64,000 bases of DNA, from contig JAFGAR010000081.1 of the NCBI GenBank assembly GCA_016933575.1, positions 96,001 through 160,000 on the forward strand, read 5' to 3'. Both the position numbers and the translations under genes were made by a program. Under the pieces are notes generated by a model that did no database searches, was not told where the DNA came from, and saw nothing but the letters and a program-made list of their open reading frames with translations. Below, in pieces: positions 34,117-43,178 of this stretch. The first letter of the stretch is position 1. Each line of letters opens with the position of its first letter. Source of the stretch: Candidatus Thorarchaeota archaeon. GTDB taxonomy: Archaea > Asgardarchaeota > Thorarchaeia > Thorarchaeales > Thorarchaeaceae.

Positions 34117-34837
34117 AGATGATGCGTGTTGTCCAGAGCCTCAGTGCATCTGAGTCAACCTTCAGATTGGCTTCTAGATCATTGATTGTTAGTGCTCCCT
34201 CTCTGTATACTTTGATATTCAATGATTCTGTTTCTTCAGCTCTCTCAACGCCAATTATGGTGGAGTTTTCAGAGAGCTTGGATGGTCCTGCATCAATGTA
34301 TAGGTCCACCTCATCACCTAACTGCTCCAAGGCTACTGAAACATCAAAAGGACTTGCTCCTCCACTTCTATTTGCGCTGGTTCCTACTATTGGGCCTCCA
34401 ATCATACCTGCTATACCTCTTGGTACAATATGATTTGGGACTCGGATTGCAATTGAGTCTCTCCCTGCAGTAATATGTTCAGGAATTTCAGGTCTTGGTT
34501 TGACAATAAGCGTAAGAGCTCCTGGCCAGAACAGTTTTGCAATGACAGTTTCTAGGGTACCAAATTCATGATATACTTCACACTGTGAGATATCTGAAAA
34601 TAGAAGTGGCACTCCTAATTGACGGTCTCGTCTCTTGACTGAAATAAGTCGACTTAGAGCATCAGCATTTTGTGCATCACAGCCTAGCCCATAGCTTGTA
34701 TCAGTTGGATAGACGACAATGCCTCCATCTTTAATCACGTTTGCTGCCCTTTGGATGATGGAATCACAATCACTCAGATTCTCAATGCTCATTATCTCAG
34801 CTGTCAATTGACTTCCCATTCTGAATCCTGCAAACAT
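34103..34837 (-). CDS. tsaC: L-threonylcarbamoyl-AMP synthase (YrdC/TsaC domain); true start may be 34819 or 34792
   Basis: YPTDTSYGLGC, K.R, FWPGALT, AIRVP, TSANRSG, ST. Confidence 0.93.
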   Translation of the reverse strand: MFAGFRMGSQLTAEIMSIENLSDCDSIIQRAANVIKDGGIVVYPTDTSYGLGCDAQNADALSRLISVKRRDRQLGVPLLFSDISQCEVYHEFGTLETVIAKLFWPGALTLIVKPRPEIPEHITAGRDSIAIRVPNHIVPRGIAGMIGGPIVGTSANRSGGASPFDVSVALEQLGDEVDLYIDAGPSKLSENSTIIGVERAEETESLNIKVYREGALTINDLEANLKVDSDALRLWTTRIIFADM

Positions 34838-34882
34838 ACATATGGCCCTTACGCTCCATGTTCATCAAGCGGAGGAATAGAA

Positions 34883-35926
34883 ATTTTCGGAGTAATCTTG
34901 GCTGCAGGCAAGGGCGAGCGAATGAACCCTCTCACCCTTGAGATTCCAAAGGCTCTTGTCTATGTTGCAGGTAAGACTCTCCTAGAATGGAGTCTAGAAC
35001 GTCTCTTTCTTTCCGGATGTAATGATATCATTGTAGCAACTGGTTGGAAGAGTGAACTAATCAAAGACGCATTAGACGCGATAAAAATGCCTTCAGTTGA
35101 AAAGACATCAGGATCAGTATCAATTATTGAAGTACCAGAATACGAACGAGGTCCCTTGCAGACATTTGTAACAGCAACAGGTATGGTCCATGGTTCTACC
35201 AACATCCTCAATCCTGTCGATCTGATTATCTCAATGAATGACGTCAAAGCAATCATATCCGCTCATCCAAAACATGACCAATATGCTGTTACCTTGGCAA
35301 TCGATTACGATAGCAATCGAGGAAGTGAGGTCTCTCTCGGTTCAGATGGCCAAATTCTAGCAATCAATCAAGAAATTCGAAAAGGCTCCAAGAAGGCAAA
35401 GAGTGCGCTGTTACTCACATTCTCTTCGGGAGTCATTGAGCTTTGCAAGAATGAGTTAGACCGTGGTGAGAGCCGAATCTTTCCCGTACTAAATAATATG
35501 ATACAAGTCAGGGATCATAAGGTACATGGGTATTCTGTCACCGGTATCTGGTATGATGTTGATACAATTCACGATGTATTGAGTGCTAACAAACATCTTC
35601 TTGGTTCTGTGATTAAGCAGAAACCCGACTCTGTGTATATTCCAGATGGTGATACAATGCAAATAGAAGACTTCCTATCCCTCGATTCTGGAATCCGTAT
35701 AGGTCGTGGTGTTCTCTTGAAAGGACCCTGTTTAATCGAAAAGAATTCATCAATAGGGGACAAATGCATCATTGGTCCTTACGTTAGCATGGCGGAAGAT
35801 ACGATTATCGGAGATAATAGTGAAGTTCAAAATACAGTCATCTTTGGTTCGTCCAATGTGCCCATCAACAGTCGAATTGATGGGACCATCATCTATCAAT
35901 CAAATTACTATCGAGAGGAGGCTTAG
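34883..35926 (+). CDS. Sugar-phosphate nucleotidyltransferase with C-terminal left-handed beta-helix; probable non-canonical start
   Basis: VILAAGKGERM.PLT..PKAL, W.DVDT..D, hexapeptide repeats; start discussed in findings. Confidence 0.85.
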   Translation: MFGVILAAGKGERMNPLTLEIPKALVYVAGKTLLEWSLERLFLSGCNDIIVATGWKSELIKDALDAIKMPSVEKTSGSVSIIEVPEYERGPLQTFVTATGMVHGSTNILNPVDLIISMNDVKAIISAHPKHDQYAVTLAIDYDSNRGSEVSLGSDGQILAINQEIRKGSKKAKSALLLTFSSGVIELCKNELDRGESRIFPVLNNMIQVRDHKVHGYSVTGIWYDVDTIHDVLSANKHLLGSVIKQKPDSVYIPDGDTMQIEDFLSLDSGIRIGRGVLLKGPCLIEKNSSIGDKCIIGPYVSMAEDTIIGDNSEVQNTVIFGSSNVPINSRIDGTIIYQSNYYREEA

Positions 35927-35929
35927 TAA

Positions 35930-36538
35930 ATGCCAAGTAAATTCCGCGTTCGGGGATTCTTTCGAGGAATTGTCCTTAGAATTGCCCGACCTCTTGCACG
36001 AGCTGGGGTCTCACCAAATTCCATTACCTATGCTAGTCTATTTTTTGCTCTCTGTGCATTTCTCGTGCTGCCGCTCACAGACTCTCCTATCCTTTTTGGA
36101 ATACTCGTCTTTGTCACAGGATTACTGGATGGCGTTGATGGAAGTGTAGCACGACTTACCGAGTCCTCATCTACTACTGGCGGACTAATCGACTCGGTTG
36201 TCGATAAAGCTTCTGAAGTACTGATCCTCACAGGAATTGCTCTTCGATACCAAGACGCTATCTTTCTTGGCCTTTCAGTTGAATTATGGGTGATCTTTGC
36301 AATTTTTGGATGGTTGATGACGAGCTACACGCGTGCACGCGCTGAGAGTCTTGAGGTGTCTGATCTGGATATCGGTGTAGGAGGGCGTTCTGAACGCTTA
36401 CTCACTCTAGTGATATTCTCAATCTTTGGATTTATTCTATGGGGCCTGCTTGTTGTTACAATAATGGGGTTTGCAACTGCTGGATACAGATTATATCACT
36501 ACAAACAGCAACTTTCTGCCCGAGAATCAAACAACTAG
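35930..36538 (+). CDS. CDP-alcohol phosphatidyltransferase (archaetidylinositol-phosphate synthase-like)
   Basis: SPNSIT, DGVDGSVAR...G..IDSVVD, SYTRARAE, G...R.ER. Confidence 0.9.
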   Translation: MPSKFRVRGFFRGIVLRIARPLARAGVSPNSITYASLFFALCAFLVLPLTDSPILFGILVFVTGLLDGVDGSVARLTESSSTTGGLIDSVVDKASEVLILTGIALRYQDAIFLGLSVELWVIFAIFGWLMTSYTRARAESLEVSDLDIGVGGRSERLLTLVIFSIFGFILWGLLVVTIMGFATAGYRLYHYKQQLSARESNN

Positions 36539-36610
36539 TTGATGCACCGCCATACTTAAGAGTAAGTCAAAAAAGGCCGCCATAGAATCAGCTTACGGAG
36601 ACAATTTTCG

Positions 36611-37030
36611 ATGGCCAAATTCAGAGCGGATCACTATCTAATTGCAGAATTTGAAACTACACCTGATACCAAAAAGGTAGGAGAGAACGTCCTAGCCGCC
36701 TTAAAGGAACTTTCTGAGATGAAGGATCTTGCCATTGTATCTAAACGCATGGAAGGAAAATCTTGGTCCGAAATAGTAGGTCGTATCGATATTCCAGCTG
36801 GCTCGAAAGCATTCTGGGCGATGATTAAGAAGGAACTATCTGAGCGAGAGCCATATCACCTCTTCATCCGTTTTGATATGAATGCAGAAGGAGCAAATAT
36901 TGACGAAGCTCGTTCAGCTGTGAAATCTTGGATAGAAACCAATATTGTTCCGAAAATTAAGGCTAAGACCTCAATCAAGAGTTTGAAAGTACTTCAACCA
37001 AATGAGGTCTATATGCCCAAACTTGACTAG
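36611..37030 (+). CDS. Hypothetical soluble protein
   Basis: Clean 139-aa ORF with GGAG upstream; no family recognised. Confidence 0.65.
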   Translation: MAKFRADHYLIAEFETTPDTKKVGENVLAALKELSEMKDLAIVSKRMEGKSWSEIVGRIDIPAGSKAFWAMIKKELSEREPYHLFIRFDMNAEGANIDEARSAVKSWIETNIVPKIKAKTSIKSLKVLQPNEVYMPKLD

Positions 37031-37035
37031 ATCTC

Positions 37036-38049
37036 TCACTCTTCTAATACATCAATGATGTGCAAATTGCTACCTACTGCTTGCACAATCTCGTATCGAT
37101 TATCTCCATCTATATCCCCGGCGGCAACAATGGATTCCGTCGATTTCTTGGTTGTCTTGAGCGTGGTTTCCTCATTGATTCGATTTCCGATCAATGAGAG
37201 TATCGCAATTGTAGAGTTTGCATGACTCACAACCATCTGTCCCTGTTGATGGTCCAAATCCCAAAATTTACCCATTCTAATCGAGCTCACTGGACTTGGC
37301 GCTCGTATAGAATCTAGTTTTTCCATCGTACCTTTTACAAATCCGAATAGACTGAGTGTACGACCATCCGAGACAGTAAGTGTTTCATAATTCTCATCGT
37401 TGGTGATATCGCCTGTAGCTACTAGACCAACCTCACCACCAACACTGATCTTTGCTCGTTCATGTAGTCGATCATCTGCATATTGATAGATGTAAAAATA
37501 ACCCGAGTCATCTCCAAACACGAAACGACTGTACGGCATCCCCTTGGTCATCAGAGGTCGTATCGATAGTACGGGTCTCTCAAGTACCTTATGCGCGAGT
37601 TTATCGAGAGCAACATCATACCACCCATAACACCTCATACTACCATCACTGGTTGATACCACAACTTCAGAGCTCTCATCATCAAGGACGTTTAAGACTG
37701 CAATTGCTGTTGTTAGACTACCTAGAGGAGTTGATGCTTTGACACTAATACTATCATCCATGTACACAAATACGCGCAGGATGTTGTCAAGCCCCCCCAT
37801 TACAAAATCCGGTATACCATCGCCAGTCACATCTCCTATTCCGATGGCAGCTAATGGCGGGAGTCCTCCTATGTTACACCGCTCTTTGAGCGGTTTTTTA
37901 TCATCACGATTGAAATCATATACTCTTACATCGCCATTAAGCGTGGTAGTGATTATATTGGTCGTTCCATCTCTCTGTAGGTCCACAAGCTCGACAGATG
38001 TAATTGCTTCCTTGAAAGCAACTTTTGCAGCAATGTCTAGCTTAGTCAT
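37036..38049 (-). CDS. FG-GAP/VCBS-type beta-propeller protein
   Basis: Repeated D.x.D(G) loops: GDVTGDGIPD, GDITNDENYE, GDIDGDNRYE. Confidence 0.75.
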   Translation of the reverse strand: MTKLDIAAKVAFKEAITSVELVDLQRDGTTNIITTTLNGDVRVYDFNRDDKKPLKERCNIGGLPPLAAIGIGDVTGDGIPDFVMGGLDNILRVFVYMDDSISVKASTPLGSLTTAIAVLNVLDDESSEVVVSTSDGSMRCYGWYDVALDKLAHKVLERPVLSIRPLMTKGMPYSRFVFGDDSGYFYIYQYADDRLHERAKISVGGEVGLVATGDITNDENYETLTVSDGRTLSLFGFVKGTMEKLDSIRAPSPVSSIRMGKFWDLDHQQGQMVVSHANSTIAILSLIGNRINEETTLKTTKKSTESIVAAGDIDGDNRYEIVQAVGSNLHIIDVLEE

Positions 38050-38167
38050 TATTCCGAGGGCCTCTTAAAATTGGAGCATGATGGAGTAGGTTGAGGTTCT
38101 TGATACCATTTAAGAGTTCTTAGATTGTTGCTAGTTCCCCTGAACTTATGTGCTTAAGTCTGAGAAT

Positions 38168-38725
38168 ATGGGACTTGATAGTATGAGCAAAGAGGAACAA
38201 TTGCCAATCCTTGACACCAAAGAGTGGACCAGCACTCCAGAGACCGTTGCAGACGAACTCAGGTCTTTTGTTAAAGAATTCGAGTTGTTTACGCCTGAGC
38301 TCTTTGCTGAAGTCAATTTTCATCTCCTACGACAATCTGGTCTTACAAAAAGCAGCCGACAAGCATTGTGCGAAATATCCATCTTCAATAAGACTTGTCC
38401 CAAGTGTGAACTTCTGTACAGTGCCAAGAAATGTCCTCTCTGGTCCCGACTCTACAAAATAGTGACTTGGGATATAGTCGAAAGAGCGCCTCCTTGTATT
38501 CGATTAGCCTTTGCAAAAAAGACAATAAAGACTGTGACTAACTATCTTGTTGCTGTTAATCTGGTGAGCCCACCTTTTTTCAAATCCCGCGGAGCACCAT
38601 CCTGTAATGCAATGCGAAGATGGGGGTATTGCCATCCCAATGAATATTGCAAAGCAATGGAGACCGATAACACATTCGAATACAATGCTGCACGAGAACG
38701 AGTGAAATTATCACGGGCTCTCTAA
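38168..38725 (+). CDS. Cys-rich protein resembling the Fe-S C-terminal domain of primase large subunit PriL (start uncertain)
   Basis: PPCI...APSCNAMRRWGYCHPNEYC...N..EY plus upstream C-x8-C-x2-C-x8-C. Confidence 0.55.
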   Translation: MGLDSMSKEEQLPILDTKEWTSTPETVADELRSFVKEFELFTPELFAEVNFHLLRQSGLTKSSRQALCEISIFNKTCPKCELLYSAKKCPLWSRLYKIVTWDIVERAPPCIRLAFAKKTIKTVTNYLVAVNLVSPPFFKSRGAPSCNAMRRWGYCHPNEYCKAMETDNTFEYNAARERVKLSRAL

Positions 38726-38791
38726 TCAAAGGATTCAAGTCATGGCTTAAATACTGCTCCAGACCTATGAGAAGACACGGGGCAGGTCATT

Positions 38792-40300
38792 GTGATCGAC
38801 GAAATCAATGTTGAACATGTTCAACTCATTCGCTTGACTGGACTTAGAGAGGATCTTCTTCAAAATGCCCGTGTGGAGAATGGGACGTCTTGGAGTAATA
38901 TCTCTCAGACTATCAGTGAACATGAACGTATTATTTCAATGGGCGAAAGGCATAGTAGACAAAAAGCAATTCAAGATCCTGTTCATGGGGCGATTATTTT
39001 AGAACCCTGGGAACTCGACACGATTTCTACTTGGGAGATGCTCAGACTCAGATATGTAATGCAACTTGGCCCTGCTCACATAGTTTATCCTGGAGCCACG
39101 CATACACGCTTTCAACACTGTCTGGGAACTAACTTTCTTGCTCAGAAATCAATACGAGTTGTGAATTATTGCGAAGACCTTGATACAGCGTGTTTTGTCC
39201 CCTTCTCCGGTCTCCTTGATGATTATCAAAAGAAGCTATTCAGAGCTGCAGCATTACTTCATGATGTTGGTCATCCACCAACTTCTCACACAATAGAGTA
39301 CGCCCTAGAATCTTGGGCAAATCTTGACCACACAGACTTGGGCGAATTCCTGATTCTACATAGCGGTCTTACTGACGTACTCAAACAGAATGATATTGAA
39401 CCAATTGATGTTGTAAACATACTGAAGAAGCGTACGAAAGACCCGATTATGCTACTCTTGAATGAGTTTCTTGACCACCCCTTGGATATTGACAAGACCG
39501 ATTATCTCATCAGAGATGCGTATTTCAGTGGAGTCCAGCTCGGGGTCTTTCCCGCAGAACGTGTTTTACTTACCAATCGTGTAGTCCTCGATAAGAATGG
39601 GAAATATGTCCGTGCATTTATGTTGAAAGCCATCCATTCTCTGGAAGCCCTCATGTTAAGTCGGAATTGGATGTTCTCAGACCTCTATTTGCATCACGCA
39701 GTCAAACTGGCTGAGGCGCTCATTTCCAAAGCAACTTACTTCAGAATGGAAGAAGAATCTCTTACTAAGAATGAATGTATTGGATTCTTTACACGAATGA
39801 CAGACAGTGACCTATTTCGGTGGCTTTCAGATTCTGAAATTCCCTTTGTTAGGGAGTATATCTCACGAATAACATATCGACGACTCTTCAAAGTTGCTCT
39901 CTCACGACCCATTATCTCATTTGAGCCGGATGCTCAGAAAGAGATTCTCTCGATGAGAGATAATATCCAGCGGCTTCTCACTCTTGAGGATGAGTTGGCT
40001 GATAAGAGGGGGAGTGTTGTTGTAGATATTGTTATTCCAGAGTTAGGCGAGAAGCTCCTAAGCAAGATCCCACTCTTGATTGGTGGCGAACGGGGGTTCG
40101 ATCTTGTAGCGCTAAATGAACTCCAAGAGGGTCGCCCCCTATTGCAAACGCTGAAACAACAGACACATACAATTCCCTCAGTGCGAGTATATACTGACCC
40201 ATCTATTGCAAGTACTATTCGTAAGAAATTCGAAAAACGATTCCCATTAGCACATATGCCTGAGCATCGAGATGATGAATACGATTTGATTGAGTACTAA
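38792..40300 (+). CDS. HD-domain phosphohydrolase, SAMHD1/dNTP triphosphohydrolase-like
   Basis: IQDPVHG, RLR..QLG...VYPGATHTRFQHCLG, ALLHDVGH.P.SH, DIDKTDYLIRDA, LYLHH. Confidence 0.9.
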   Translation: MIDEINVEHVQLIRLTGLREDLLQNARVENGTSWSNISQTISEHERIISMGERHSRQKAIQDPVHGAIILEPWELDTISTWEMLRLRYVMQLGPAHIVYPGATHTRFQHCLGTNFLAQKSIRVVNYCEDLDTACFVPFSGLLDDYQKKLFRAAALLHDVGHPPTSHTIEYALESWANLDHTDLGEFLILHSGLTDVLKQNDIEPIDVVNILKKRTKDPIMLLLNEFLDHPLDIDKTDYLIRDAYFSGVQLGVFPAERVLLTNRVVLDKNGKYVRAFMLKAIHSLEALMLSRNWMFSDLYLHHAVKLAEALISKATYFRMEEESLTKNECIGFFTRMTDSDLFRWLSDSEIPFVREYISRITYRRLFKVALSRPIISFEPDAQKEILSMRDNIQRLLTLEDELADKRGSVVVDIVIPELGEKLLSKIPLLIGGERGFDLVALNELQEGRPLLQTLKQQTHTIPSVRVYTDPSIASTIRKKFEKRFPLAHMPEHRDDEYDLIEY

Positions 40301-40974
40301 AGCAAATGTTTGATACTCTCGCGAACCTTTGGAAATCCATACTCCATTTGGATTATTCCATAGATTGCCTCAATGAGGGTTCCTTTGTCATGTTCAATCT
40401 CTGACTTGCTTGGAGTCGCAGGGTCGAAATGTATCCTATGTTCATAGAGCTGCCATCGGTCGCAGAGGTCCGCCATATGCTGGTTACTGACAATCTCAGC
40501 TTTCTTCTGAGTCAACTGACCGACATCATCCAGATTATTCTGCCAGAGGCGGTATAGTACTCCCATTGAAATCGCTGCATCTCCAAGAAGTGCGAATACT
40601 TTGGCAATCTCACTGACCGATATCAGAGTTACAAACTCATCACTACTTAGAGGAACATCTTTCTCGTTTCGATATTGAATCTCTAGCTCCAAAAACAAGT
40701 TCTTAGTACTTGGTTGAAACATGGCAACTATGAGAAGTTCCTTATTTTTTATCTTGAAGCCGAGTGTTCTTTCAAGTTGTGGAGCAATTCGGTTCTTGAT
40801 ATAATCTGTCTTATCATGAATCTGGAGTATCTGTTCTTCCCATCGATTAAGCTTCTCTGCAAATCGAGTCTTGTTGAATGGATTCTCGTCTTTGGAATGA
40901 CGAATGATCTCTAGCAATTTATCTAACTTCTTCTCAATGTGAATTGGTTTCCATTCAAGGCTTTTCCGACTCAT
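40297..40974 (-). CDS. RNase III-domain protein without dsRBD
   Basis: LERTLGFKIKNKELL..A, ALLGDAAI, G.LTQKKA.IVSN, TLIEAIYG follow the RNase III domain order. Confidence 0.75.
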   Translation of the reverse strand: MSRKSLEWKPIHIEKKLDKLLEIIRHSKDENPFNKTRFAEKLNRWEEQILQIHDKTDYIKNRIAPQLERTLGFKIKNKELLIVAMFQPSTKNLFLELEIQYRNEKDVPLSSDEFVTLISVSEIAKVFALLGDAAISMGVLYRLWQNNLDDVGQLTQKKAEIVSNQHMADLCDRWQLYEHRIHFDPATPSKSEIEHDKGTLIEAIYGIIQMEYGFPKVRESIKHLL

Positions 40975-40987
40975 GATATCTCAACTC

Positions 40988-41770
40988 TCAATAGTAGCTG
41001 AGTTCAGCATTCGAAACATCATATCTAGTAACATGAAACGCAGTAATTGAATACTCTGTTGAAAGCTTAGCCATTGCAAGAGTAATCAACGACGGACCCA
41101 GAGTCAGGTCCATGACCATATCGTGGATGAATATGTTATCAATGATTGCTGCCTCCATAAAATCAACAGTCTGCTGTAAGTGACCGTATTCAGTTGCATC
41201 GTCTGTTCCTGTTACTTCATCAGGCACCTCAATCCACTCAGTAGTCCATCGTCTGAATGCATCATCGGGTATGAACCTATCAACAATTCTCGAAACACCT
41301 CTTGTCCAATGCCTTGCTTCTACAAAGACAAGCAATTTTCTTGGATTGAAATGAGGATTATTCGTCAACCACTGTACAAAGGGTCTTTGATCCTCAGGAC
41401 GGCTCAAAGAAGTAACATACAAAAGGGGTTTTGTTATCCCCAGAGCTCTACGCACCGGATGAATTGCTTTCGGTTCTAATTCAAATAGGCGGTATTGCGA
41501 TTGCTTCCAACTTACAATGATTCCAAGCTCCTCGAGTCTTGTAGTATTGTGATAGAGCTTGGGACTGGTAACCTCGACTTTCTCAATCTCTTTCTTACTT
41601 GCTCCTTCCACCATCTTCTGAGCCTTTATATCAGTGGCAATCTTCTCTCGCAGCTCTGCTCCCGTCTTCAATCCGCCTTCAAGTTGATCCAAGATAATCC
41701 TTCTCGCTCTTACTGTCTCTATCTCTTCCTTGACGAGTTCTTCAACAGTCTTGTTGAGCATTATAACCAT
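40988..41770 (-). CDS. Winged-helix protein fused to a C-terminal CARF-like domain
   Basis: N-terminal wHTH (SPKLYHNTTRLEELGII...LFEL); C-terminal LLYVTSLS...P.KLLVFV...MVMDLTLGP...A...FHV. Confidence 0.55.
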   Translation of the reverse strand: MVIMLNKTVEELVKEEIETVRARRIILDQLEGGLKTGAELREKIATDIKAQKMVEGASKKEIEKVEVTSPKLYHNTTRLEELGIIVSWKQSQYRLFELEPKAIHPVRRALGITKPLLYVTSLSRPEDQRPFVQWLTNNPHFNPRKLLVFVEARHWTRGVSRIVDRFIPDDAFRRWTTEWIEVPDEVTGTDDATEYGHLQQTVDFMEAAIIDNIFIHDMVMDLTLGPSLITLAMAKLSTEYSITAFHVTRYDVSNAELSYY

Positions 41771-42038
41771 TCATCCGCGGATATATTAGCTAGTAATTAC
41801 AAGTACTAACCTTTTATACTTATCTAATATAATGTCGAATTAGAGCCTAAAAATGGTCCAAAAAGACGATACAATATACATTCCTAAGATACTTTTCGAA
41901 ATAATCGACACCCGTCCGACGAACCCTTAAATAGAATTTGGCAGAAGCCTGTACTAGCAAGGAGCTTCAAAGCTCTGAACTGACGAATCTGAATTTCTGG
42001 ATTTGTCCAAAACTAAATTAAAAAACGAGGACCGAAAA

Positions 42039-43178
42039 ATGGCTGAAGACGAGTTTCTTGGCGCAAAGCCGATTGTCATTGACAACGGCACAGGTTTGAG
42101 CAAGAACGGATACGCCGGCGAAGATCAGCCACGAAGTGTCTGGCCTACCTTGATTGGCTACCCACGATACGAGTCAATCATGACTGATGTTGATCACTAC
42201 ACACGTGACTACTACATTGGTGAAGAGGCTATCAATCTACGTGGTGTCCTACGCCTGGTTTACCCGATCTCTCATGGAATCGTAGAAGACTGGGATGCAA
42301 TCGAGAAGATTTGGAGTTACACCTTCTATAACGACTTGAAGGTAGATCCCAGCGAGAACCCGGTGCTCCTCACTGAAGCACCATTCAACCCCAGAGAGAA
42401 CAGAGAACGCATGGCCTCCGTAATGTTTGACAACTTCGGAGTACCTGCAGTATACGTTGCCACACAGGCAGTACTGTCACTGTACGCATCTGGTCGAACA
42501 ACCGGTCTGGTCATCGACTCTGGTGACGGTGTGACCCACATAGTACCAATCTATGAGGGCTTCTCAATCAATCACGCTATCCGCAGAATTGACTTGGCTG
42601 GAAGAGACATCACTGAATACCTCCGCAGACTACTCAGGCAGAGAGGATACTCCTTCGTGAGTGGTGCAGAGAAAGAGATTGTCAGAGACATCAAAGAGAA
42701 GCTCTGTTATGTAGCTCTCGATCCCGAGAGGGAGCGAACAGTCGCTGACAAGGCTGGTGTCGACAAGCCCTACATGCTCCCTGATGGTGAAGTCATCACT
42801 GTCGGTGCAGAGCGATTCCAGGGTCCAGAGTTGTTCTTCAACCCAAGTGCAATTGGTCTTGACACAATGCCTCTCGATGAGCACATTGTCGAGTCAATCA
42901 AGGCTTGTGATGTCGACTTGCGACGTGACCTATACGCCAACATCGTATTGTCCGGTGGCTCAACCATGTTCCCAGGACTCAAGGAGAGACTCCACAAGGA
43001 GATCACCGAACTAGTCCCAGAGAACATCGAAGTCCGAATCATTGCTCCTCCAGAGAGACAGTACTCTGTCTGGATTGGTGGTAGCATTCTTGGCTCACTC
43101 AAGACATTCCAGAAGATGTGGGTGTCAAAGAAGGAGTTCGAAGAAGTCGGACCCGAAGTGATACACCGCTGTATCTAG
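42039..43178 (+). CDS. Asgard actin (eukaryote-like actin)
   Basis: [89 protein letters not shown]; start at ATG 42039. Confidence 0.98.

What the first reader, a model, noticed from the sequence alone, without database searches (positions are those of the whole stretch)
38168..41770. Candidate nucleotide-signalling or defence locus beside actin: Fe-S protein, SAMHD1-like HD hydrolase, RNase III domain and wHTH-CARF
Seen: four adjacent genes in two convergent pairs. The HD and RNase III stops overlap at 40297-40300, and only 13 bp separate the wHTH-CARF-like gene from the RNase III gene. The wHTH-CARF gene is divergent from actin. Known: SAMHD1/dGTPase-type HD enzymes deplete dNTPs and act antivirally, CARF domains sense cyclic oligonucleotides or RNA ends, and RNase III cleaves dsRNA. 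Inference: a ligand-gated regulator controls a dsRNA nuclease, alongside a dNTP-depleting enzyme. I do not recognise this combination as a described system, and no CRISPR or cyclase gene is present in the window.
Basis: partly seen in the sequence, partly recalled or inferred. Interest (0 to 1): 0.75.

Follow-up and report, generated by a model that had tools for sequence, protein, structure and literature searches.

The report
Actin-linked CARF regulator, not defence locus
The four genes are real and their domains were read correctly, but they are a fixed part of the core chromosome of one Thorarchaeia family rather than an anti-virus cassette; the only link that survives across Asgard archaea is between the CARF-sensor DNA-binding protein and the neighbouring actin gene, which makes it a candidate signal-controlled switch for actin.

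Summary
Observation confirmed. A Cys-rich ORF, a SAMHD1-type HD hydrolase, an RNase III-fold protein and a wHTH-CARF protein lie exactly as described, next to actin. Both disputed folds were recovered: CARF Z 13.4, RNase III Z 14.5.

The defence reading is not supported.
- The genes are single-copy and sit in a 9-gene block that is syntenic in all 16 sampled genera of one Thorarchaeia family.
- HD is missing from the block in two genomes.
- Outside the family, Cys-HD, HD-RNase III and RNase III-CARF are all unlinked.
- Cas10 is found in only 12 of 81 family genomes, against 72 of 76 for the CARF gene.

The link that persists is wHTH-CARF (PADLOC family CARF_m5) head-to-head with actin. It holds in Thor-, Odin-, Baldr-, Jord/Frey- and Atabeyarchaeia and in unnamed lineages.

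Most likely the protein is a ligand-sensing, CRISPR-independent transcription factor acting on the shared actin promoter region. In this family it is co-transcribed with the lineage's only RNase III. That enzyme is a derived form with no dsRBD, two of the four acidic residues and a new N-terminal helical part. The ligand, the DNA site and the effect on actin are inferred, not shown.

This scan has already reported the same actin-linked CARF regulator on other DNA, in at least 19 genomes. I found no paper describing it.

The parts
38168..38725 (+). Cys-rich protein, about 180-191 aa. The start could be 38150 GTG, 38168 ATG or 38183 ATG. It has eight invariant Cys: C-x8-C-x2-C-x8-C and PPC-x35-C-x8-C-x5-C.
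   Evidence: No Pfam or PADLOC family. Present in f1 26/26, f7 5/5, f8 and f19 6/6. Outside f1 it is not beside HD or actin but beside FAD oxidoreductases.
38792..40300 (+). SAMHD1-type HD phosphohydrolase, 502 aa (HD 39107-39448; HD_assoc_2 39626-40258). It is an extra, f1-specific paralog.
   Evidence: Pfam. PDB 2hek E 4.5e-32, EF1143 and SAMHD1, with the H..HD..D motifs aligned. G000 has three paralogs. The gene is missing from the block in G024 and G042, which keep a ~33%-identical paralog elsewhere.
40297..40974 (-). Derived RNase III-family protein, 225 aa. N-terminal helical extension at 40807-40974; nuclease domain at 40300-40806; no dsRBD.
   Evidence: Pfam PF00636, 37.6 bits. VIA Z 14.5 to the C. 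jejuni Rnc nuclease domain. D132 and E202 are invariant; the positions of Aquifex E37, E40 and D107 read K, A and T. It is the only PF00636 gene in each f1 genome.
40988..41770 (-). wHTH-CARF one-component regulator of family CARF_m5. wHTH at 41438-41734; CARF at 40991-41434. Database homologs begin at M4 (41761).
   Evidence: 29 of 29 family members match CARF_m5. Pfam PadR matches 8 of 29.
41771..42038 (.). Shared divergent control region. Genus-conserved box CGCGGATATATTAGCTAGTAAT at 41776-41797; two ATACTTWTCKAA boxes at 41816-41827 and 41889-41900; actin TATA-like CCTTAAATA at 41925-41933; Shine-Dalgarno-like GAGGACCGA at 42027-42035.
   Evidence: Alignments of 16 genus and 15 other-genus regions; sequence. 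Function as an operator is inferred, not shown.
41955..41982 (+). Two-tier hairpin at the predicted 5' end of the actin leader.
   Evidence: 95.8% of cells paired; 4 of 9 pairs show compensatory changes; many G-U pairs. Covariation score 0.483 against 0.333 in shuffles (0 of 500 reach it) and at most 0.141 for slid controls. Genus-level only.
42039..43178 (+). Actin (lokiactin-type). The ATG at 42039 is preceded by the conserved GAGGACCGA.
   Evidence: Pfam Actin E 8.8e-133. 96-99% identity within the genus and 70-89% in other Asgard classes.

Best explanation
This is a conserved core-chromosome neighbourhood of one Thorarchaeia family, not a defence system.

The functional unit that comparative genomics supports is the wHTH-CARF protein (CARF_m5) together with the actin promoter region it faces. 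The protein is most likely a dimeric one-component transcription factor. Its PadR/ArsR-like winged helix would bind the shared intergenic region. Its CARF domain would sense a small, probably nucleotide-derived, ligand that does not come from Cas10. The output would be control of actin and/or of its own operon.

In this family only, that operon also carries the lineage's sole RNase III-family gene. This gene is a derived enzyme: the dsRBD is lost, only the Asp and Glu of the four acidic site residues are kept, and an N-terminal helical extension has been added. Its expression is therefore tied to the regulator.

The HD hydrolase is an extra SAMHD1-type paralog. The 8-Cys protein is probably a redox or metal protein. 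Both are neighbours by descent and are dispensable for the rest of the block.

Shown: the folds, the family membership, the synteny pattern and the independence from Cas10. Inferred: DNA binding, ligand sensing, the effect on actin, and nuclease activity.
For: Folds and family
- The wHTH and CARF folds and the CARF_m5 profile are established.
- The most conserved residues lie in the wHTH and the linker (R23, R41, Y73, N75, R107) plus the CARF DxTxG motif (D221, T223, G225).

CARF-actin adjacency
- The CARF gene is adjacent and divergent to actin in all f1 genera examined, and in f2, f3 (Odin), f12, f13 (Atabeyarchaeia CP147779/CP147780), f19 (Freyarchaeia CP147778, Jordarchaeia), f21 and Baldrarchaeota. 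It is co-directional in f30.
- The other flanking genes differ between these lineages.

Distribution
- All 117 database homologs that carry an organism name come from Asgard archaea; sources name them only as hypothetical or ArsR/PadR regulators.
- Cas10 palm domain: 12 of 81 f1 genomes, and 0 of 22 other genomes of the genus, against 72 of 76 for the CARF gene.

CARF-RNase III coupling
- The gap between the two genes is -4 to +19 bp in most f1 loci, which is operon-like.
- Each f1 genome has exactly one RNase III-domain gene.
- Sister family f2 and the Heimdall, Loki and Hod lineages have a canonical, unlinked Rnc with ERLEFLGD, ADxxEA and a dsRBD.

HD and the Cys-rich gene
- HD is lost from the block in two genomes and has paralogs elsewhere.
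- The Cys-rich gene is unlinked to HD or actin outside f1.
Against: No experiment or transcript data was available.
- No operator could be defined. The best cross-lineage 9-mer, found in 9 of 10 lineages, is matched by 9% of dinucleotide shuffles and is absent from this window.
- In family f7 the CARF_m5 gene is not next to actin.
- Large Asgard groups (Heimdall, Hod, Loki, Hel) have actin without this regulator. It therefore cannot be a general requirement for actin expression.
- The CARF domain is much less conserved than the wHTH, so ligand binding may be weak, varied or lost.
- The four-gene arrangement is kept across 16 genera down to about 40% protein identity. That could still reflect a family-specific functional module.
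- G000 itself carries a type III-D-like CRISPR module with Cas10 on contig C76, so cOA cross-talk cannot be excluded in this particular genome.
Confidence: 0.58

Rival explanations
1. An RNA-control module specific to this Thorarchaeia family. The CARF regulator and the derived RNase III work together, through co-expression or as a complex, on structured RNAs. The target could be the actin mRNA leader, giving post-transcriptional control of actin on top of transcriptional control.
For: - The operon-like CARF-RNase III junction is kept in all f1 genera.
- Both proteins carry f1-specific additions: insertions in the CARF domain relative to other classes, and an N-terminal helical extension plus a ~30-aa insert in the RNase.
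- From the TATA-like box to the ATG the actin gene has about 85-115 nt, with a hairpin that covaries within the genus and includes many G-U pairs.
- The RNase keeps an invariant D132 and E202.
Against: - The hairpin stems are only 3+6 bp, far shorter than the roughly two helical turns that classical RNase III needs (established knowledge of the family).
- The CARF-actin pair exists without any RNase III gene in the Odin, Atabey, Frey/Jord, f12 and f21 genomes searched.
- In sister family f2, rnc is canonical and unlinked.
- RNase III-fold proteins can be non-catalytic; mitoribosomal mL44 matches at Z 13.7.
- Hairpin covariation was tested only among 16 related genomes of one genus.
Confidence: 0.2
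2. The four genes form an antiviral or nucleotide-signalling system: a ligand-gated CARF regulator switches on a dsRNA nuclease while the SAMHD1-like HD enzyme depletes dNTPs.
For: - All four genes are kept in order throughout family f1.
- CARF domains are typical sensors of defence second messengers, and the fold match is strong.
- The HD protein is SAMHD1-type.
- G000 has a type III-D-like CRISPR module that could make cOA.
Against: - The genes are single-copy and sit at a fixed place in a 9-gene syntenic core block. That block includes lipid-synthesis genes (NTP transferase, CDP-alcohol phosphatidyltransferase) and actin. This is unlike a variable defence island.
- Cas10 is absent from most genomes that carry the locus.
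- HD is lost twice without loss of the other genes.
- None of the three non-actin linkages exists outside f1.
- The dGTPase defence models score 17-24 bits against cut-offs of 383-400.
- PADLOC matches domains only.
- The RNase is the only RNase III gene in the genome, which suits a housekeeping role.
Confidence: 0.1
3. Synteny by descent only. None of the neighbours, actin included, is functionally related to the wHTH-CARF protein. It regulates unlinked targets or has lost its sensor function.
For: - Archaeal gene order can persist without function.
- f7 has the gene away from actin.
- No operator motif reached significance.
Against: - The head-to-head pair is kept across at least eight families and several classes, while everything else around it changes.
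- Divergent regulator-target pairs are a well-known arrangement in prokaryotes.
Confidence: 0.12

Closest known systems
CARF_m5 (minor CARF family; PADLOC-DB profile PDLC01987 'CARF_m5--CARF', named in the style of the Makarova et al. 2020 CARF classification, which I could not read)
   Same: All 29 aligned family members match this profile over nearly its whole length. The best E is 2.4e-80; the window protein scores 5.3e-22. The protein family itself is therefore already catalogued.
   Different: I found no description of its conserved pairing with actin, of its Asgard-restricted range, or of the Thorarchaeia operon with an RNase III gene.
Csa3 (CRISPR-associated CARF-wHTH transcription factor, Saccharolobus; PDB 2wte, 6w11, 6wxq)
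   Same: It is a CARF sensor joined to a winged-helix DNA-binding domain and works as a ligand-controlled regulator. The CARF domains superpose at Z 11.2-11.7, rmsd 2.9 A, 126-127 residues.
   Different: The domain order is reversed: wHTH is N-terminal here, whereas CARF is N-terminal in Csa3 (PMC4012209). The wHTH is of the PadR/ArsR/RosR type. There are no cas neighbours, and Cas10 is absent from most genomes that carry the gene. Its neighbour is actin.
Bacterial/Asgard class-1 RNase III (Rnc) and Mini-III
   Same: The RNase III nuclease fold matches at Z 14.5, 25% identity. The FQPS...LGDA...VSN...KGTLxEA motifs are present, with invariant Asp and Glu. Like Mini-III it lacks a dsRBD.
   Different: Other Asgard Rnc proteins have ERLEFLGD, ADxxEA and a dsRBD (bioRxiv 10.1101/2023.12.14.571608). 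This one lacks three of the five conserved acidic positions and the dsRBD. It adds about 56 N-terminal helical residues and a ~30-aa insert. The Mini-III structure 1u61 ranks only 45th in Foldseek. The similarity of the active-site pattern to Mini-III rests on my memory of the Mini-III sequence.
SAMHD1 / EF1143-type dNTP triphosphohydrolases (COG1078-like HD proteins)
   Same: HD + HD_assoc_2 domains are present. E is 4.5e-32 to Aquifex 2hek, 2e-27 to EF1143 and 2e-20 to SAMHD1, with the metal-binding H, HD and D motifs aligned.
   Different: It is a family-specific third paralog with a conserved ~50-aa N-terminal extension. Activity, specificity and any antiviral role are untested.

Membership tests
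CARF superfamily | Rossmann-like alpha/beta CARF fold | tested here: met
   Model residues 113-260 match VC1899 (Z 13.4, rmsd 2.7 A, 126 aligned), Cdn1 (12.6), Csm6 (12.3), Can2 (12.2) and Csa3 (11.7). The Foldseek top 38 hits are all CARF proteins.
CARF superfamily | Sequence profile match to a curated CARF family | tested here: met
   PADLOC CARF_m5 at E 5.3e-22; 29 of 29 family members match. The PDB profile search hits the CARF nuclease Cdn1 8z4i at E 0.004.
CARF superfamily | Conserved loop motif after strand 4 (DxTxG-type) that lines the ligand pocket | tested here: met
   The motif reads D221-L-T223-L-G225. D221 is invariant or nearly so across classes, and T223 and G225 are at least 90% conserved in A1. 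That it lines a pocket is inferred by analogy.
CARF superfamily | Binds a cyclic oligoadenylate or other nucleotide ligand as a dimer | not testable with these tools
   No ligand docking or assay is available. The CARF domain is less conserved than the wHTH.
Csa3 family | N-terminal CARF followed by C-terminal wHTH | tested here: not met
   The order here is wHTH (13-111) then CARF (113-260). Csa3 has CARF first (PMC4012209).
Csa3 family | Encoded in or beside CRISPR-cas loci, with cOA made by Cas10 | tested here: not met
   There are no cas genes in the block. Cas10 is found in 12 of 81 f1 genomes against 72 of 76 for the gene.
Class-1 RNase III (Rnc) | RNase III nuclease-domain fold | tested here: met
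   Z 14.5, rmsd 2.1 A, 134 aligned, 25% identity to C. jejuni Rnc. Pfam PF00636 scores 37.6 bits against a cut-off of 27.
Class-1 RNase III (Rnc) | Full acidic signature (E37, E40, D44, D107, E110 in Aquifex numbering) | tested here: not met
   Only the D44 and E110 equivalents (D132, E202) are present, and they are invariant. The other positions read K, A and T. NCBIfam RNaseIII scores 25.6 bits against a cut-off of 166.
Class-1 RNase III (Rnc) | C-terminal dsRNA-binding domain | tested here: not met
   The protein ends at residue 225 with the nuclease domain. Other Asgard Rnc proteins carry about 70 further residues.
Mini-III | Stand-alone RNase III domain of about 130-140 aa without dsRBD, active with a reduced acidic site | tested here: inconclusive
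   There is no dsRBD and the site is reduced. However, the protein has an extra 56-residue N-terminal part and an insert. 1u61 ranks only 45th (E 0.08) in Foldseek. No Mini-III sequence was aligned here.
SAMHD1-type dNTPase | HD domain with H..HD..D metal site plus the associated C-terminal region | tested here: met
   Pfam HD and HD_assoc_2 match. The alignment to 2hek keeps HTRFxH, LLHDxGHPP and DxxDYLxRDAY.
Anti-phage dGTPase (PADLOC dGTPase / NCBIfam antiphage_dGTPase) | Score above the curated family cut-off | tested here: not met
   17-24 bits over about 30-70 residues, against cut-offs of 383-400 bits.
Defence island / mobile defence cassette | Patchy presence among close relatives, variable neighbourhood, other defence genes nearby | tested here: not met
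   Present once, at the same place, in 24 of 24 genus genomes and in all 16 sampled genera, inside a syntenic block with lipid-synthesis genes and actin. G+C is not deviant.

The most novel reading that the evidence does not exclude
CARF_m5 is a second-messenger-gated switch of the Asgard actin gene, inherited with actin from early Asgard ancestors. In this Thorarchaeia family it has recruited a remodelled RNase III that acts on the structured actin leader. Cytoskeleton supply would then be set by a nucleotide signal at both the transcriptional and the RNA level, making this a prokaryotic forerunner of signal-controlled actin expression.
Probability: 0.12. Interest if true: 0.85.

Novelty: new variant of a known kind. 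Interest (0 to 1): 0.5.

Why it matters
Asgard actin is central to ideas on how eukaryotic cell architecture arose, yet nothing is known about how these archaea control it. A dedicated DNA-binding protein with a ligand-sensor domain of the CRISPR-signalling type sits against the actin promoter in many Asgard classes, independently of CRISPR. This gives a concrete, cloneable handle on that control: a protein to purify, a 268-bp DNA region to test, and a pocket to screen for ligands.

It also shows CARF domains used outside defence. It documents a remodelled RNase III as the only RNase III gene of a whole archaeal family.

For the scan, this is also a caution. A set of defence-flavoured domains side by side can be plain core-genome synteny.

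Tried and rejected
- Complex prediction of the CARF protein with the RNase III-like protein (alignments A6 + A3) scored 0.00 in both runs. The verdict was no answer, so it is not used as evidence either way.
- The search for related loci with the CARF alignments A1 and A2 failed because no conserved stretch was found. The actin alignment A4 was used instead.
- The 2020 CARF classification paper could not be read by DOI, PMC id or PubMed id. A search for 'CARF_m5' found no paper.
- Cross-lineage operator search. The best 9-mer, CATCTATAT, occurs in 9 of 10 lineages, often as GATATC[AG]TCTATAT inverted pairs in Baldr, f21, Odin and Frey/Jord. However, 9 of 100 dinucleotide-shuffled sets reach the same maximum, and the motif is absent from this window. 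It is rejected as established evidence.
- A GAATC...GATTY inverted repeat in the actin leader is present in only some f1 genomes.
- Cys-rich protein. The Atlas feature search gave only hits of 0.86 or less to unnamed clusters, and NCBIfam PriL scored E 0.08.
- The bacterial sigma-70 promoter and intrinsic-terminator scan gave counts no higher than shuffles and does not apply to archaea.
- phmmer of P0003 against the PDB gave only weak hits, E 0.026 or worse. The fold was settled by structure comparison instead.

Full report
**1. Observation**

The ORF map and translations confirm the layout. The genes are:
- a Cys-rich ORF at 38150/38168-38725 (+);
- an HD protein at 38792-40300 (+);
- an RNase III-domain protein at 40297-40974 (-);
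- a 260-aa protein at 40988-41770 (-);
- actin on the + strand, with its ATG at 42039.

The HD and RNase III stop codons overlap (40297-40300). The last two minus-strand genes are 13 bp apart.

Domain evidence is as follows. Pfam finds HD + HD_assoc_2, Ribonuclease_3 and Actin. PADLOC matches the 260-aa protein to CARF_m5 at E 5e-22. G+C is flat across the region.

**2. The two disputed folds**

AlphaFold2 models built on alignments of orthologs each reach pLDDT 90.3.

For the 260-aa protein:
- The top 38 Foldseek matches are all CARF proteins.
- VIA-align places residues 113-260 on CARF domains: VC1899 Z 13.4, Cdn1 12.6, Csm6 12.3, Can2 12.2, Csa3 11.7.
- Residues 13-111 fall on wHTH regulators of the RosR, ArsR and PadR types: RosR Z 10.7, rmsd 1.4 A.
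- The domain order is therefore wHTH then CARF, the reverse of Csa3 (PMC4012209).

For the 225-aa protein:
- Residues ~57-225 superpose on bacterial RNase III nuclease domains: Z 14.5, rmsd 2.1 A, 25% identity (Foldseek).
- In 23 orthologs, FQPST, G131-D132, VSN, RIHxD and K197-G-T-L-x-E202-A are invariant.
- The positions of Aquifex E37, E40 and D107 read K, A and T.
- There is no dsRBD.
- About 56 helical residues precede the domain.

**3. Do the four genes travel together?**

Within the genus, each gene is single-copy, and the CARF and RNase III genes are adjacent in 24 of 24 genomes.

I fetched 20-kb neighbourhoods from the genus and from 15 other genera of the same family, f1. They show that the whole block is syntenic. 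Its order is: NTP transferase, CDP-alcohol phosphatidyltransferase, an unknown gene, FG-GAP propeller, Cys-rich gene, HD, RNase III, CARF, actin. Protein identities fall to 25-50%. HD is missing from the block in G024 and G042.

The four-gene order is therefore no more conserved than its housekeeping surroundings.

Outside f1 every non-actin link dissolves:
- Sister family f2 has a canonical rnc on another contig.
- The best HD homologs elsewhere are ~33%-identical paralogs at other places, and G000 itself has three paralogs.
- The Cys-rich family also occurs in f7, f8 and f19. There it lies away from HD and actin, beside FAD-dependent oxidoreductases.

**4. The link that does persist**

A profile of the wHTH-CARF family finds it in 119 of 301 Asgard genomes. 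It is present in f1 (72 of 76), f2, f3, f7, f12, f13, f15, f19 and f21. It is not found, or gives only weak partial hits, in f5 (0 of 28), f9, f14, f22 and f27.

I compared its coordinates with those of actin and with the fetched loci. The gene lies head-to-head with actin in f1, f2, f3, f12, f13, f19 and f21. It is co-directional in f30 and unlinked in f7.

A scan of named genomes with an actin profile, followed by an HMM search of the upstream 2.5 kb, puts names on these lineages.
- Pair present: Atabeyarchaeia (CP147779, CP147780), Freyarchaeia (CP147778), Jordarchaeia, Odinarchaeota, Baldrarchaeota and several unnamed Promethearchaeota.
- No such gene upstream of actin: the Heimdall, Hod, Loki (including Promethearchaeum syntrophicum MK-D1), Hel, Borr, Wukong, Hermod and Sigyn loci.

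The 117 database homologs that carry an organism name all come from Asgard archaea. Sources name them only as hypothetical or ArsR/PadR regulators. All 29 aligned members match CARF_m5.

**5. Relation to CRISPR signalling**

The Cas10 palm domain occurs in 12 of 81 f1 genomes and in none of 22 other genomes of the genus. The regulator therefore cannot depend on Cas10-made cOA in general.

G000 is the exception. Contig C76 carries a type III-D-like module of Cas6, several Cas7, Cas10, Cas5 and its own CARF-PD-D/ExK effector. This is a MAG with 6.9% contamination, so the assignment of that contig carries the usual binning caveat.

**6. The RNase III gene**

RNase III domains are common in Asgard archaea (198 of 301 genomes) and are already described, partly next to Argonautes (bioRxiv 10.1101/2023.12.14.571608). 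Those from f2, Heimdallarchaeum, Hod and Loki lineages are canonical, with ERLEFLGD, ADxxEA and a dsRBD.

Each f1 genome has a single RNase III-domain gene, the derived one downstream of the CARF gene. The junction is -4 to +19 bp in most loci.

The simplest reading is that the family's general RNase III was remodelled and came under the regulator's promoter. A dedicated partnership is possible (rival 1) but not shown.

**7. The control region**

Within the genus, the 268-bp spacer holds several conserved blocks:
- a box next to the CARF start (41776-41797);
- two ATACTTWTCKAA boxes (41816-41827, 41889-41900);
- the actin TATA-like CCTTAAATA (41925-41933).

Across f1, GCTTAAATA, a distance of about 85-115 nt to the ATG, and GAGGACCGA before the ATG are kept.

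A two-tier hairpin at 41955-41982 is 95.8% paired in 16 genus sequences. Four of nine pairs show compensatory changes, and there are many G-U pairs. The covariation score is 0.483, against 0.333 for shuffles (0 of 500 reach it) and at most 0.141 for slid partners. This points to an RNA element in the actin leader, tested at genus level only.

I could not establish a phylum-wide operator.

**8. Verdict**

The defence-system inference fails on distribution and context. What is really there is the Thorarchaeia version of an Asgard-wide, CRISPR-independent wHTH-CARF regulator paired with actin, with three family-specific neighbours.

I reached this reading before consulting earlier notes. The scan has reported the same actin-linked regulator on at least 19 other genomes. 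Those notes are not independent evidence. I found no published description.

Noticed in passing
window 41955-41982 (and 41985-42004): A structured leader on the actin mRNA. The first element is a two-tier hairpin with compensatory and G-U changes within the genus. The second is a GAATC...GGATTT stem present in only some genomes. A leader of about 80 nt is long for an archaeal mRNA.
   Followed up: partly
G000 contig C76, locus L152 1-10000: A type III-D-like CRISPR-Cas effector module (Cas6, four Cas7/Csm3-like genes, an 831-aa Cas10, Cas5/Csx10) with a CARF4-PD-D/ExK (Can/Card1-like) effector. It is the only Cas10 found among the 23 genus genomes searched (G000 plus 22 others).
   Followed up: partly
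window 37036-38049 (-): A cytoplasmic FG-GAP beta-propeller with weak Pfam hits to the eukaryotic BBS7, BBS2 and ITFG2 propellers, all near or below the cut-offs. In sister family f2 (L040) its homolog lies directly downstream of the CARF gene. The Cys-HD-RNase III trio therefore looks like an insertion between the two genes in f1.
   Followed up: partly
window 34751-37030 (+); L044 6327-8635; L064 11308-13559; L060 3727-5348: An NTP-transferase/hexapeptide gene, a CDP-alcohol phosphatidyltransferase gene and an unknown 139-aa gene stay close to the CARF-actin pair in Thorarchaeia and Atabeyarchaeia, and in part in Freyarchaeia. This is an older conserved neighbourhood around actin.
   Followed up: no
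L155 4986-7076; L156 3393-5549; L157 3447-5484: In family f7 the 8-Cys protein gene sits directly downstream of an FAD-dependent oxidoreductase (Pyr_redox_2 / FAD-depend_C). This hints at a redox partner role.
   Followed up: no
window 41816-41827 and 41889-41900: Two direct copies of ATACTTWTCKAA, 73 bp apart, between the CARF and actin genes. They are conserved in the genus but not in other genera of the family.
   Followed up: partly
G282:C182:26155-29566: In one genome of the genus, about 1.5 kb separates actin from the CARF gene instead of about 250 bp, so something has been inserted into the shared control region.
   Followed up: no
L069, L081, L083, L117 (record titles): Contigs that carry Asgard-type actin, and in L081 the CARF_m5 gene as well, are deposited under non-Asgard names (Thermoproteota, Deferrimicrobium, Bathyarchaeota/Bathyarchaeia). 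These are probably mislabelled MAGs.
   Followed up: no
window 40297-40300: The convergent HD and RNase III-like genes overlap by 4 nt here and in many f1 genomes, leaving no room for a terminator. Their transcripts would overlap at the 3' ends and could form dsRNA.
   Followed up: no
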